Shown here: one piece after another, positions 528 through 62,690 of the stretch
Layout of the letters: each line of letters begins with the position of its first letter
Numbering within the stretch: position 1 is the stretch's first letter
Source of the DNA: Eledone cirrhosa
Lineage: Eukaryota
Direction: 5' to 3'
Assembly (NCBI GenBank): GCA_964016885.1
Contig: OZ024754.1
Coordinates: forward strand, 5,270,001-5,334,000
Length of the DNA: 64,000 nucleotides
Notes under the pieces: generated by a model
Seen by the model: only the letters and a program-made list of their open reading frames with translations
Database searches by the model: none
What the model was told of the DNA's origin: nothing
Program-made: the position numbers and the translations under genes

Positions 528-666
528 ACGAAGGAAATGTGGTAAGAAACCAGGTGGACCATAACGCACCAAAGTACTCAATACATAGGGTAGTAGAGTG
601 GTAATAGGAACTGAATTAGCCGTCGAAACGGCTTGAGCTCAGCCGTCGGGGTCCTACTCGTTCCTA
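528..666. mobile_element. Short PLE-type terminal fragment (tail-out inverted pair) in (TA)n, with the 3' half of a hammerhead ribozyme on +
   Basis: Flanked by (TA)n on both sides. GAAA-CGGCT-tgagctc-AGCCG-TC at 625-647 matches HHR stem III plus GUC. Homologous to 9913-10031 and 3057-3119. Confidence 0.6.
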
Positions 667-3056
667 TATATATATATATATATATATATATATATATATA
701 TATATATATATATATATATATATATATATATATATATATATATAGAGAGAGAGAGAGAGAGAGAGAGAGAGAGAGAGAGGGGGGGGAGAGAGAGAGAGAA
801 AGGAAATATCAGTTGAGGGGAGGAAAAGGAAGATGTGCTTATGATGTCGACTATGATGAACATGATAGGGATTATGGCGATGATGATGACGATGACTATG
901 ATATATATATCTGTATATGTATGTGTGTGTGTGTGTGTGTGTGTGTGTGTGTGTGTGTGTGTGTGTGTGTGATAAATGGAAAAATGTTTTGTGTAAAATA
1001 AATAAACCAAATGCAAATACAACAAACACATAAGTTTGGTAAGTTCTGTAAACAACAGCAGAACGACCAGTAAAATATATATAAACATACAAGTTTATAT
1101 ACTATAATATATATATATATATATATATATATATATATATATATATAGAGAGAGAGAGAGAGAGAGAGAGAGAGAGAGAGAGAGAGAGTACAATAGATAT
1201 GCAACCAATAGAAATGATCGTATTTTGGAAGAGATGGGTAGTAAAATCTGAAGCTGAATTCTTGGTTATGGCTTACTAGTACCACTACCTCTCCACCCGA
1301 ACAATAAAATCCCCCAACCAAAAAAATGCCGAAAGATAACAAAATAGAATAGAACTATATAACTGCAGAATCATTGGACAGAATTTGCAGCATAAAATAA
1401 ACAAAAAAAACAAAAAAGGAAGAAAGAAAGAAGAAGCGGGTAATGTACAACCTCCTATTTGGCTGTCATTTTTACCTTCGATGGAATATATTCACGGTCA
1501 TGTCTGAGTAACTGGAACTGGTTATATTCACCAACCGATATATCGAGGTTTTTGAAATAAGAAAGGAATATACGATAATATATAATATATATAAACAGCA
1601 TTTCCATATGAAAAACATGTTACATCTACTAAAACTCTAAGACATGTCTGTATCGCGTGATTATGAATACAATGTGTGTTCCGTATTGTTCTTTTTATAT
1701 ATATTATTTTTTCCTAAGATTGTAGGGAACACAGTTTATCGTATGACTGTAGGGAAATGAGTTTTACTAGCGAAACTACTGCAAGGAATGAAACTGAATA
1801 TCTACCTAAATATGAGAACCTTCAGGTGGAAGTAAAATATAGCAAGAAGTGGGCAGAGAAAAAATAATTCATTGATTGACTGTATGTAAAAATATGCAAA
1901 TAAAAGTAACAAGACTTATACGACATTGCAGTATTGCACAAACACCGACAGAAAACACCTGCATGTAATAACAGATGCACAATATTATATTGCAAGGAAT
2001 GAATGCAATAAAGTAATACACAATATTATTTTACAATAACAGATTCTCGTTGAAAGTGTCCCGCAAAACAAATAACTGAAGCCCAGAAAAGATAATGAAG
2101 CGTTTATAACATTTTGTATTAGCAACAACTTAGTGTGAAACATGGAGTAACACTATCTTGTATGTATCATGAAAGCTTCATGGTTGTAGAAAGAACAATG
2201 GGGGAAAACTACAGATAACTGTTTAACATCTTAGAAATAACTGCGATAAAATATGTTGTTAAACACAGAGTTAACTACAGAATAGAAAGTACTTAATGCT
2301 TAACATATTTGTAGAGATAAATTGTATGTAACTGATATTTACATTTTGGTCTACCTGTGTTGATCTTTCTTATCGGAGTGTCCTGTTAGAATAAAACACA
2401 TATGTTTATATATACCCATCGAAATCAACAGAAGGCCGGACTGAGAACTTTATAGTTTTACTTCCGCAAAAACTCTATATGTATATTTCAATAGTCCAGC
2501 TTCATCATTCAAATATAATGCAAGGCACAGGCGATTTCATCGGGTGTTGTTTGCAGAATTAGTTATATAAGAGAGCAGGATTTGGGTGAACAGAAACAGA
2601 GAATAGAAAATACAAAATATATCATCAATTGTGATACGAGGATGCCCTGCCGATTCCGTGTTATTATAACGGCAGGCCATCCCCCGAGTGAGCACAAGGA
2701 AAATTAAATAACAGATAACATGGATGGTAGATTATTGTATCGACCCCGGGAGAATGAATTGTAAATTTGTCCTCAAGGATATTTGAACTCAGAACGAAAT
2801 GCCACAATCTAAACAGTAATAAAACAACAATATAGATGACGAGTTAAATATGTAATCGATATAAAAACATAAAATCAATAATGATATTTAATACTCGTGT
2901 TTCCATCCTCATTTTAGCGTTAATCGTTATATTTACTGACGTAAAAATTAATGCAAAGAATTAATGCGATAATACATAACTAATGACCGGTTAGATATCC
3001 TTTCGAATAAACACACGCACAAACATACACATGTACGTAATATATATATATATATA

Positions 3057-3119
3057 GGAAAGAGCTAGGACCTCGACAGCTGAGCTCCGGCCGTTTCGTT
3101 CGACAGCTAGATCCGAACT
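3057..3119 (-). mobile_element. Remnant of the same PLE-type terminus/HHR 3' half in (TA)n
   Basis: Reverse complement reads ...GAAA CGGC cggagctca GCTG TC gaggtcctagctctttcc(TA)n, homologous to 625-666. Confidence 0.55.
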
Positions 3120-3385
3120 ATATATATATATATATATATATATATATATATATATATATATATATATATATATATATATATATATATATATATATATATA
3201 TATATATATATATATATATATATAATTATATATATATATATATATGTCTACATATATAATTATACATGCATATATATATATATATATGTCTACATATATA
3301 ATTATACATGCATATATTTATATATATATCCGAATATAGATATATATATATATATCCGAATATAGATATATATATCCGAATATAT

Positions 3386-3593
3386 CCGACATCCAGAGTT
3401 GACATTGCACTCAGTGCTCCTTTGGGAGCCCCTACATGGACACACTGGAAGAGGAAGACCAAGGTTAACATATGTTGATGCCCTAAGGACAGACACTGGT
3501 CTGTTGGAGATGCAGGATATGGCAGCGATAATGAGGGACAGAGACCGCTGGAGAGAACTCGTCCATGGATCTCGGGAATTTTACCCGCCTTAG
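3386..3593 (+). mobile_element. 3' end fragment of an RTE-like LINE
   Basis: Near-identical to 60716-60923 ([25 protein letters not shown]...[10 protein letters not shown]); runs into (TA)n. Confidence 0.8.
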
Positions 3594-60076: not shown

Positions 60077-60923
60077 ATCTCTACCAGATATTTTGTTTTA
60101 GTCTCATTCATTCTGAGCCCCACACTCATCAACACAGACTCCTGCATCAAATCCTCTGGCTCCTTCACTGTATTTGTCACCATAACTATGTCGTCGGCAA
60201 ATTCAGCATCCGATATCTTTTTCGCTTTAACTCTCCTGCTCTGAGCCGGTGCTACAGTAAAGCCAGAGTCCTGGTGTTTCTCCAGTGCAAGGCGCATTAC
60301 ATAGTCCAGAGGGGATCACTAATGTAAGCGGGATGCCGCTAGAATGGGTTGAGAACTTCCTTTATTTGGGTGCAAAGATTGGGAATACGGAAGATGATGT
60401 GGTTGAGAGGAAGAGCAAATCTTGGGCGGCGTGCCACAGCTTGAGATCGGTGTGGTAGTCGGACCTTCGTAAAGACCTGAAAATCCTCCTCTTCATTGCT
60501 GTAGTGGAGTCTGTGCTGCTGTACGGGTCTGAGACTTGGACACTGACCAAGAAACTCATTCAGATGGTGGAATGGTGCTACACGAGAATGCTGAGGATGG
60601 CTCTGAACATTAATCAGTATACACGGAGGATGAAAAACTCAGAGGTGTATGGGATCCTCCCAAAAGTCAGCTCAAAAGTGACACAAAGCAGACTGAGGTT
60701 AGCTGGCCATGCTCACCGACATCCAGAGTTGACATTGCACTCAGTGCTCCTGTGGGAGCCCCTACATGGACACACTGGAAGAGGAAGACCAAGGTTAACG
60801 TATGTTGTTGCCCTAAGGACAGACACTGGTCTGTTGGAGACGCATGACATGGTAGCGATAATGAGGGACAGAGACCGCTGGAGAGAACTCGTCCATGGAT
60901 CTCGGGAATTTTCCCCGCCCTAG
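60077..60923 (+). mobile_element. RTE-like LINE 3' fragment with 5' inversion
   Basis: The minus segment 60077-60310 encodes the RT EFADDI...GLRMNETKTK. The plus segment continues VENFLYLG...[12 protein letters not shown]...RLAGHAHR (one stop). Confidence 0.88.
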
Positions 60924-61529
60924 AAATATTTGTATATATATATATATATATATGCATGTGTGTGAGTGTGTGGTTGTGTCTATATATGTATATATGTATA
61001 CGTGTATATTTGCGTCTGCCTAAGTGACTACACGTAGATATGATCGAGAATGTTCCCAACATTCTCAGTTGAAAATGATTTGGTACCACACGGCATTTAG
61101 TATCTGAGCGGCCTAACACAAAGTAGATCTCGTTAGGTTTTGAAGGCTGTGATCAAACACGCGACAATCTAGTGCCTATAATATCAGGTGGGTATTTGAA
61201 TATGTTCATGAGTATATAAACTTACCCATTTCATTGTTAATATAAGTTTCCAAAATGTCCAAACATAGCCAAAAGCTTTACATAGCTTTATCTTCGAAAC
61301 CACTCGATGTCTTGGTTTCTAACACCATGAGGCTGTTTTATCGCTGATGAAGTTGAACTCATATTTATTCATCTACTACGCACGTTCTCCACCACACTGC
61401 TATCACAGATTTGGTGTCCCTCATGCGTACTCCAGCAAGTAATTGAAATTGTGGGTAACATGATTTCCAACAGAAAGAACTCTAGAAATGTCTTTTGAAC
61501 TTCATCATCGCCACCATGTATTGCGTCTC

Positions 61530-61878
61530 CCAGAGACAAGTGTCTGTCCTTCAGGCAACTATATATGTCAACGTCTGCCTCCCTCTTCTAGTGTGTCCGT
61601 GTAGAGGCTCCCACAGGAACACCGAGTACAGTGTCAACTCTGAATTTCGGTAGGCAAGTCCAGTTAAACTCAGTATCCTCAGTATCCTGTTAATTTCGAG
61701 ATGGCCATCCTCAACACTCTCGAGTAGCACCCATCCACTATCTGAATAAGTTTCTAGGTCAATGCCCAAGTCTCAGACCCGTACAGTAGCACAGACTCCA
61801 CCTCGGCAACGAAGAGACGGATCTTCAGATCTTTACGAAGGTCCGACTTCCGCACAGATCTCAAACTGTGGCACGCCA
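61530..61878 (-). mobile_element. Decayed copy of the 60310-60923 RTE-like family
   Basis: Reverse complement aligns with GGCGTGCCACAG...TCGGACCTTCGTAAAGA...GGGTCTGAGACTTGG...CATGGACACACT. Confidence 0.75.
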
Positions 61879-62466
61879 TATATATATATATATATATATA
61901 TATATATATACATACATGCATACATATGTATATATGTATATATATATATTCATAATTATATATATATACATACGTATATCTATCTATCTACCTATCTATC
62001 TATATCTATATATCTATCTATCTATCTATATATATTCTTTTTTTCAAATACCACTTTGGAAGAAGAATCAGGATGGAGAGAGAGGTGCTGTACCCCAGCA
62101 AGTTTTATGAAAGGTGGGTGAAAGTGGCGAGAATGGCCCGAGTGAATGGGCCTTCTCTCTATATCAGCCTGTAGATTGAGGAAAAGGAGGAGGAGAGGAA
62201 AGGAGTACAAGCTCTTCGTACTCCTGGAGATGAGGGTTGCACATTTTTTTCGGGGGTATGTGTTACCCATATAAACTGTCTCCCTCTATTGGGGAAAATC
62301 GACTAACTTTTAAATTCCATCTGTGATAACATTTTACACGTTTTTATTGTATGTAAACTTCCCCCTTTGTATTTGTCCCCTTCTTTTGTGCCCCTGTGGC
62401 TAATAAAGAAATATATCTATCTATATATATATATATATATATATATATATATATATATATATATAT

Positions 62467-62690
62467 ACGTTATTCCGGGTTGAATCGGAGGTAACCACAG
62501 TAAGTAAGGTACTCAATACATTGCAGTGTATAAAAGTTTTAATATAGATGAGATTCTACAGGACTAGAACTGTTTCATTCTTTAGAAATCATCCTTCTTT
62601 TTTTTATACATAAAACTCTTTTCGTTTGTTTAGAGATTCCTGATGATTTCTAAAGAATGAAACAGTTCTAGTCCTGTAGAATCTCATCTA
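62467..62690. mobile_element. PLE-type tail-out inverted terminal pair with a 41-bp junction insert
   Basis: 62543-62593 is the reverse complement of 62642-62692; left-only tail 62467-62542; (TA)n on both sides. Confidence 0.75.
62633..62685 (+). ncRNA. Type I hammerhead ribozyme
   Basis: GAGATTC-CTGATGA-T-TTC-taaa-GAA-T-GAAA-CAG-ttctagtc-CTG-TA-GAATCTC. Perfect 7-bp stem I, stem III with a real loop, GUA site. Confidence 0.85.

What the first reader, a model, noticed from the sequence alone, without database searches (positions are those of the whole stretch)
528..62690. Recurring insertion rule across several HHR-bearing PLE-type families: tail-out inverted pair, one full tail and one arm ending at an internal TA
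Seen at six loci: 528-666, 9913-10031, 15858-16134, 16198-20472, 41979-42151 and 62467-62690. Each sits in a dinucleotide microsatellite, (TA)n on at least one side, with 3' ends outward. One arm keeps a ~50-80-nt terminal tail; the opposite arm stops where the element itself has TA/TAT (TTCCTA, CATAACTA, AACAAT, CATCTA) and merges into (TA)n. Inference: a programmed two-ended integration mechanism in which the second DNA end anneals to an internal TA of the RNA. It would be shared by an autonomous Neptune-like PLE and short ribozyme-carrying derivatives that colonise TA microsatellites.
Basis: partly seen in the sequence, partly recalled or inferred. Interest (0 to 1): 0.8.

Follow-up and report, generated by a model that had tools for sequence, protein, structure and literature searches.

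The report
Two-start Penelope insertions in TA repeats
These are head-to-head copies of Penelope-like jumping genes in TA repeats with an extra tail on one side only, a layout already described for this class and likely made by two reverse-transcription starts on the element's RNA, with a hint that the inner start would pair briefly with the TA target.

Summary
The six loci are real. 16198-20472 is a young, 5'-truncated Penelope-like element (RT plus C-terminal GIY-YIG motifs) with 1905-nt identical arms; 41979-42151 is a short copy of the same family; the other four belong to three other families, one linked only weakly. Head-to-head copies, a tail at one end and (TA)n targets are published PLE features, and two internal RT start sites flanking the tail were shown in vitro (Frangieh 2024). 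Corrections: no hammerhead core at three of six loci; the protein linker is Nematis-like, not Neptune-like; nothing shows that the short families derive from this element; the tail is not terminal, because it reads as codons 8-27 of the next unit's ORF, so both ends are internal starts. What adds to the literature: all 8 two-ended copies pair one tail with one tail-less end; tail-less ends share 2-5 nt with the TA run in four families (P about 5e-4, post hoc; two extra loci fit worse); reads show a sharp step at that site; tails are 55-80 nt. Best reading: twin priming at two fixed sites, fine-tuned by microhomology. Known kind, modest new variant.

The parts
16198..20472 (.). Locus D: head-to-head pair of 5'-truncated Penelope-like copies between (TA)31 and (TA)15
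16198..16252 (-). D tail (55 nt, 59 with the shared ATAT), present on the left arm only
16198..16278 (-). ATG-started 27-codon frame through the tail; likely the ORF start of the next tandem unit
   Evidence: open in D and D2, other frames stopped, 12 of 20 differences at third positions (p=0.013)
16253..18157 (-). D left arm, part shared with right arm
16774..18570 (-). 598-aa open frame, RT motifs A-C, thumb, CX4CXXC linker, GIY-YIG with CCHH; N-terminus missing
16465..16501 (-). Hammerhead core in D (mirror copy on the right arm near 20224-20260); stem I only 2 bp
   Evidence: and inspection
18568..18573 (.). Inner junction palindrome TGATCA, at least 3 nt shared by both arms
18568..20472 (+). 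D right arm, tail-less, ends AACA|ATAT into (TA)n
41977..42151 (.). Locus E: D-family; tail-less arm 41977-42109 (-), tail-only arm 42103-42151 (+), junction palindrome AATATT; tail stops at an internal TA
528..666 (.). Locus A: inverted tail 528-604 plus 7-nt overlap, body to TTCC|TA; no HHR core; sense inferred
9913..10031 (.). Locus B: A-family; tail 9913-9987 ending in (AG)n, palindromic arms 9988-10031
15858..16134 (.). Locus C: tail-less arm (-) to about 15958, tail arm (+) with tail 16071-16134; arms 88% alike, both HHR cores damaged
62468..62690 (.). Locus F: tail 62468-62542, 48-nt inverted arms, HHR core at 62640 with predicted cut after 62678, 10 nt before the tail-less end
62592..62633 (+). 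42-nt filler at F's inner junction, identical to flank 62882-62923
3055..3118 (-). Extra A-family copy, single arm, same TTCC|TA end, no tail
10123..10307 (.). Extra C-family copy: inverted tail plus 19-nt arms; tail-less end stops 3 nt past the TA, in an A-run
22629..22800 (-). Extra C-family copy, tail arm only, intact type I hammerhead (core 22780, cut after 22735), same outer end as C
24767..24955 (-). Older D-family copy (D2), tail arm only, ATG at 24848
23271..23598 (.). Extra inverted pair G in (TA)n, 113-nt arms 89% alike, about 40-nt tail on the right; family unknown, 1-nt TA overlap

Best explanation
The loci are 5'-truncated Penelope-like retrotransposon copies joined head to head in (TA)n, each with a 55-80-nt tail at one end only, and they were likely made by twin priming at two fixed internal sites of a tandem element RNA. 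Shown here: the anatomy, the coding capacity of D, the family-specific tail-less breakpoint, and that D's tail is an open frame from an ATG. Inferred: the endonuclease nicks both strands of the TA run; one nicked end primes cDNA at the outer site (tail end), the other at the inner site 55-80 nt upstream; protein and RNA structure set the two windows and 2-5 nt of pairing with the target end picks the exact base; both cDNAs stop early (the outer one often within 7-22 nt of the inner site, as in A, B, E; sometimes far beyond it, as in C, D, F, which needs strand displacement or a second RNA); their 3' ends are joined by microhomology or filler DNA, which leaves small palindromes at the inner junction. 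The ribozyme is likely a passenger in this step.
For: D encodes a PLE-type RT-EN (fold closest to telomerase RT, E 2.5e-7). Both-strand cleavage and extension and two internal RT starts flanking the tail were shown for anole Poseidon (PMC11167929). 8 of 8 two-ended copies in the window pair one tail with one tail-less end, none tail/tail or tail-less/tail-less (6 of the 8 were chosen for that pattern). Same inner break in 3 of 3 A/B copies and 2 of 2 D-family tail-less arms. Raw reads of two runs: depth 2187/2186/3219 (X14) and 1938/1928/3058 (X16) at 16245/16252/16264, a single step placed at about 16252.5, while the ATATA at 16228-32 shows only 2279->2209 and 2024->1975; a joint back to 16253 carries TA letters (16 and 8 reads). 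Opposite-mate depth falls gradually past 16258, as short tail arms predict. TA overlap 3, 2, 4, 5 nt. Tail = ORF start, as in A. vaga and anole PLEs. Inner junctions: TGATCA, AATATT, CCCCGGGG palindromes and a 42-nt flank-templated filler.
Against: [quoted passage not shown] Two extra loci fit the TA rule worse (G 1 nt; 10123-10307 ends in an A-run). 3 of 11 copies have one arm only. The overlap statistic is post hoc, from 4 families, and AT-rich start sites or later TA slippage could produce it. The read step comes from reduced-representation libraries with an unknown number of loci, mostly 85-99% relatives; the loose-end letters at 16253 were not among the rows shown (1049 hidden), so a subfamily with another tail could give the same step. 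The outer end is not sharp in the reads (2092, 1021, 166 at 16228, 16211, 16207, confounded by read ends at a GAATT site). Long overlapping arms (D) are not what one-RNA twin priming gives in L1. PLE identity and strand of A/B rest on a weak tail match to F (2 of 1000 shuffles, one of 21 pairs tested). No genome was held, so no genome-wide count and no empty site.
Confidence: 0.6

Rival explanations
1. Two fixed internal starts without any pairing (as reported for anole Poseidon); the TA overlap arises because starts lie in AT-rich RNA or because the TA run later slips and trims the element back to its nearest TA.
For: PMC11167929 reports initiation non-homologous to the cut DNA. Tails are 60-66% AT. 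G has 1 nt of overlap. The genome is saturated with unstable (TA)n.
Against: The null already uses local composition. The youngest insertion (D, arms identical) has 4 nt of overlap, leaving little time for trimming. B's end in (AG)n and the A-run end at 10298 show overlap with whatever target is there.
Confidence: 0.2
2. One reading: a true RNA 3' end primes first, then the second DNA end finds an internal TA by annealing; shared by one autonomous element and its ribozyme derivatives.
For: TA overlap at all four family breaks; resembles L1 twin priming (PMC2837659).
Against: Tail is the next ORF's start, not a terminus; 9-13 TA-type sites lie in each family's 3' region yet one is used; no step at the 5-nt ATATA; no tail homology between D and the other families; no HHR core at A, B, E.
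Confidence: 0.1
3. The inverted arm is made by self-priming (fold-back) on an antisense template or a cDNA hairpin, and the tail by endonuclease resolution of the intermediate.
For: Proposed for A. vaga PLEs from palindromes at inverted junctions (PMC3846280); tail by EN resolution in PMC8557442. B, D and E have junction palindromes.
Against: Fold-back gives arms that start at the same point; D has 410 nt and F a flank-derived filler between the arms, and A and E overlap by 7 nt only. In vitro starts already account for the tail.
Confidence: 0.08
4. Assembly or library fold-back artefact, or chance juxtaposition of independent insertions in a TA hotspot.
For: D's arms are identical; PLE repeats trouble assemblies; C and D sit in one TA run.
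Against: The inversion stops exactly at element boundaries with the same asymmetry in diverged loci (C 88%, G 89%); no TA lies at the inner junctions; independent runs hold the element.
Confidence: 0.02

Closest known systems
Endonuclease-bearing Penelope-like elements, inverted pLTR plus tail (Arkhipova 2013 PMC3846280; Craig 2021 PMC8557442)
   Same: Inverted 5'-truncated copy head to head, tail at one end, pLTR and tail running into the ORF start, hammerhead in the pLTR, palindromes at the inverted junction, (TA)n targets.
   Different: Tails here are 55-80 nt, not 30-40; both arms truncated, no full unit in the window; TA overlap at the tail-less end is not mentioned in the passages read.
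Anole Poseidon PAc (Frangieh 2024 PMC11167929)
   Same: Two internal RT starts inside the ORF start define the tail; both strands cut and extended; AT-rich target; ribozyme not needed for insertion.
   Different: PAc starts 111-118 nt into the ORF at a site called non-homologous to the target; D's inner start is 22 nt and outer end 81 nt into the frame, with 4 nt of TA overlap; different clade (linker zinc finger).
L1 twin priming and dual priming (as described in PMC2837659)
   Same: Second nicked end primes at an internal RNA site, giving a 5' inversion with microhomology at the inner junction.
   Different: In L1 the internal site is variable and the two parts do not overlap; here both sites are fixed, 55-80 nt apart, and arms may overlap by 1.9 kb.
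Neptune and Nematis PLE clades
   Same: C-terminal GIY-YIG with CCHH and a CX2-5CXXC linker.
   Different: 7 aa from CXXC to the next Cys, as in 3 Nematis rows, against about 25 in Neptune rows; 128 aa between RT motifs A and B against about 57-60 in the Neptune and Nematis rows of Fig. S1 (counted by eye).
Non-LTR retrozymes (bioRxiv 10.64898/2026.07.22.740005)
   Same: Short type I hammerhead sequences tied to PLE pLTRs.
   Different: Retrozymes are defined as tandem repeats with a ribozyme per unit; the islands here are single, inverted and partly without a core.

Membership tests
EN+ Penelope-like element (locus D/E family) | Telomerase-related RT | tested here: met
   RVT_1 E 1e-4, below the curated cut-off; top four fold matches are telomerases
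EN+ Penelope-like element (locus D/E family) | C-terminal GIY-YIG endonuclease with CCHH and R, H, E, N residues | tested here: met
   VVY..C..C..YIG at 486-506, R515, H519, H535, E566, N578; Pfam GIY-YIG hits 3 of 40 aligned relatives but not P0001 itself
EN+ Penelope-like element (locus D/E family) | Inverted or tandem pLTR with optional tail overlapping the ORF start | tested here: met
EN+ Penelope-like element (locus D/E family) | Type I hammerhead in the pLTR | tested here: inconclusive
   Core and stem II present, stem I 2 bp; no Rfam hit; activity untested
Neptune clade | CX2-5CXXC linker motif | tested here: met
   C465-X4-CXXC; 37 of 40 relatives match a like pattern
Neptune clade | Long spacer (about 25 aa) between CXXC and the endonuclease Cys | tested here: not met
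   7 aa here; Fig. S2 rows of PMC8557442
Neptune clade | RT phylogeny groups with Neptune references | not testable with these tools
   No reference PLE sequences were held as session sequences
Nematis clade | Reduced linker (7 aa spacer) | tested here: met
Nematis clade | Short motif A to B spacing, no insertion in fingers | tested here: not met
   128 aa versus about 60
Naiad / Chlamys | N-terminal endonuclease | tested here: not met
   Endonuclease follows RT
Hydra clade | CCHH absent, CxCX5C linker | tested here: not met
   CCHH present
PLE-derived, families A/B, C, F | Homology to a coding PLE | tested here: inconclusive
   No match to D or to the fetched proteins; PLE-like by anatomy and, for C and F, hammerhead cores
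Non-LTR retrozyme | Tandem units each with a type I hammerhead | tested here: not met
   No tandem units at these loci

The most novel reading that the evidence does not exclude
Penelope-like elements integrate by an obligatory, programmed twin-priming reaction: one RNP uses two fixed start sites on its RNA, one for each nicked strand, and 2-5 nt of RNA-target pairing both sets the exact start and explains (TA)n targeting; the octopus family belongs to an unnamed marine clade with a telomerase-sized insertion in the RT fingers.
Probability: 0.3. Interest if true: 0.6.

Novelty: new variant of a known kind. Interest (0 to 1): 0.34.

Why it matters
How PLEs make their inverted repeats, tails and microsatellite bias is named as an open problem in Craig 2021, and the one in vitro study explains the tail but not the inversion. 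If each insertion uses one outer and one inner start with brief target pairing, tail, inversion, junction palindromes and TA bias follow from one reaction, and a young, abundant family such as D gives base-level predictions for both a genome count and the existing in vitro assay. The outline itself is already known, so the gain is mechanistic detail for a specialist field.

Tried and rejected
No own genome: the genome-wide breakpoint map and empty-site comparison could not be run. Rfam: only microsatellite- and hairpin-driven miRNA hits. Related loci: none in viral contigs; 62 in metagenome contigs, mostly short, none with a terminal inverted pair; of 16 with sequence after the ORF end, 4 have a TA run of 8 nt or more, too few and too collapsed to test the rule. 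Runs X1 and X7 (contigs) were laid but contig depth is not a copy count; used only as a weak check. A shared tail motif (ATW GAG YAC, 44-55 nt from the outer end in A, B, C, 22629 copy, F) is suggestive, but only A-F reached 2 of 1000 shuffles among cross-family pairs. Match of D's tail peptide to the ORF start of relative L004 is weak (245 and 112 of 5000 shuffles; three other N-termini gave nothing). Inverted repeats left out of the count: 54025-54465 (ends do not fit clearly) and SINE-like pairs at 7039-7493, 30961-31431, 49499-49670. Earlier scan notes: none found. Literature searches for PLE twin priming or TA microhomology returned no paper whose title or abstract proposes it; Arkhipova 2006 and Evgen'ev and Arkhipova 2005 were not read and may hold more, and figures S1B and S2 of Frangieh 2024 were not seen (text search of its supplements gave no hits).
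Full report
Observation. The window is a microsatellite-rich animal sequence (32% GC; 172 tandem-repeat rows); the best protein hit is Octopus vulgaris at 68%, so an octopus host is likely. All six islands exist. They fall into four families: A/B (85% alike), C, D/E (89%), F. D has two arms identical over 1905 nt (16253-18157, 18568-20472); the left arm carries 410 more nt inside and 55 more nt outside. 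C and F have 90- and 48-nt aligned arms, B a 45-nt palindrome; A and E are a body plus an inverted tail with a 7-nt overlap. A masked self-search and profile search added five loci: two two-ended (10123-10307, 23271-23598) and three one-armed (3055-3118 tail-less; 22629-22800 and 24767-24955 tail only). One further inverted repeat (54025-54465) and three SINE-like pairs were left out.

What D is. [quoted passage not shown] It is 5'-truncated, so not autonomous itself, but identical arms and an open frame mark a young family. It is not shown to be Neptune: the CXXC-to-Cys spacer is 7 aa as in Nematis rows of Craig's Fig. S2, against about 25 in Neptune rows, and the motif A-B distance is 128 aa against about 60 in both clades (counted by eye). 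Clade is left open.

The tail is not a terminus. D's last 81 nt read [27 protein letters not shown] from an ATG; the older copy D2 keeps the frame, the other two frames are stopped in both, and 12 of 20 differences are at third positions (p=0.013). In relative L004 the ORF starts 73 nt after a hammerhead core and its product aligns with N-termini of long homologues; its match to D's peptide is only weak. This agrees with A. vaga, where the pLTR holds the first 12 codons and the tail extends to 22, and with anole Poseidon, where RT starts inside the ORF. So both ends of an insertion are internal starts on a tandem RNA. E's tail also stops at a TA of the element.

Breakpoints. Inner ends overlap the TA run by 3, 2, 4 and 5 nt (P=5e-4 for the sum, local null, post hoc). 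Against: G overlaps by 1 nt and the 10123 copy ends in an A-run 3 nt past its TA; neither is in the statistic. Reads from two reduced-representation runs with the same species label as the best holder show about a third of one mate class (32% and 37%) ending at a single step near 16252.5, with no step at the 5-nt ATATA inside the tail. This favours a position-defined start over free annealing. Limits: unknown number of loci, diverged relatives, hidden loose-end rows, and no sharp outer end. Inner junctions show palindromes (D, E, B) or a 42-nt filler copied from flank 190 nt beyond the insertion (F), as expected if two cDNA ends are joined by microhomology or repair synthesis (inference).

Ribozymes. 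An intact type I core is in the 22629-22800 copy; F and D have imperfect cores, C damaged ones, and A, B, E none. Rfam found none. Nothing links A/B, C or F to D by sequence. Very short PLE insertions by 5' truncation are known (median 128 bp in Chlamydomonas), and E is such a case, so separate non-autonomous derivatives are not required, though retrozyme-like families cannot be excluded.

What is known. Papers seen: PMC8557442, passages, section 6 in full, supplement part 54 of 59 and term hits; PMC11167929, parts 1-2 of 4, covering abstract and results; PMC3846280, PMC2837659, PMC9977147, PMC13282606, PMC12602865, passages only; bioRxiv 10.64898/2026.07.22.740005, parts 1-2 of 5. They describe the inverted truncated copy, the one-sided 30-40-bp tail, (TA)n bias, junction palindromes, both-strand cleavage and two internal starts. 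My searches did not turn up twin priming or target microhomology proposed for PLEs, but the library lacks several key older papers.

Mechanism. Most likely (0.6): both strands of the TA run are nicked; one end primes at the outer site, the other at the inner site; short pairing picks the base; the two truncated cDNAs are joined in the middle. Shown here: anatomy, coding, fixed inner break. Shown elsewhere for another clade: two starts, both strands. Inferred: one start per strand, pairing, joining.

Verdict. Real, and mostly an instance of known PLE biology; the mixed-end pairing, TA overlap, long tails and unusual RT insertion make it a modest new variant with clear tests. Interest 0.34.

Noticed in passing
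window 16774-18570 (-), residues 43-171: 128 aa between RT motifs A and B, about twice the Neptune and Nematis spacing and near telomerase size, shared by the 40 aligned marine relatives; with a Nematis-type short linker. Possibly an unnamed PLE clade.
   Followed up: partly
window 62592-62633 and 62882-62923: 42-nt filler at the inner junction of F is an exact copy of flanking DNA 190 nt beyond the insertion.
   Followed up: partly
window 23271-23598: Further inverted pair with a 40-nt one-sided tail between TA runs; family unknown, no ribozyme core seen.
   Followed up: partly
tails of A, B, C, 22629 copy and F: Shared 9-nt motif (reads IEY or IEH) 44-55 nt from the outer end; may mark a related group of elements or a binding site; absent from D.
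   Followed up: partly
window 54025-54480: Inverted repeat, 162-nt arms 93% alike, TA run on the right, CTGAAGA near the inner end; unclassified.
   Followed up: no
window 5885-6072, 7037-7493, 26688-27165, 30888-31431, 44402-44489, 48930-49739, 51015-51221: Abundant 180-nt SINE-like family (GTTCAAATCC box; label from recall), several copies in inverted or tandem pairs.
   Followed up: no
window 22501-22613, 49786-49879, 59767-59862: Short elements with terminal inverted repeats in TA, Tc1/mariner MITE-like (label from recall).
   Followed up: no
window 3386-3593, 60428-60923, 61502-61877; 25785-26252: LINE-like reverse transcriptase or endonuclease fragments (RTE-like by recall); 61502-61877 is inverted relative to 60428-60923.
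   Followed up: no
L002:1675-1861 and L001:2370-2672: Distant relatives: L002 has a neat minimal hammerhead followed by a TA run and a frame reading LAKGLNFVP; L001 ends in (TA)38.
   Followed up: partly
window 16380-16510 in runs X14, X16: Read depth about 100-fold above the tail, from a diverged high-copy relative around the hammerhead.
   Followed up: no
window 31429-32222 and 44521-44934: Minisatellites with 11-nt (72 copies) and 46-nt (9 copies) units.
   Followed up: no
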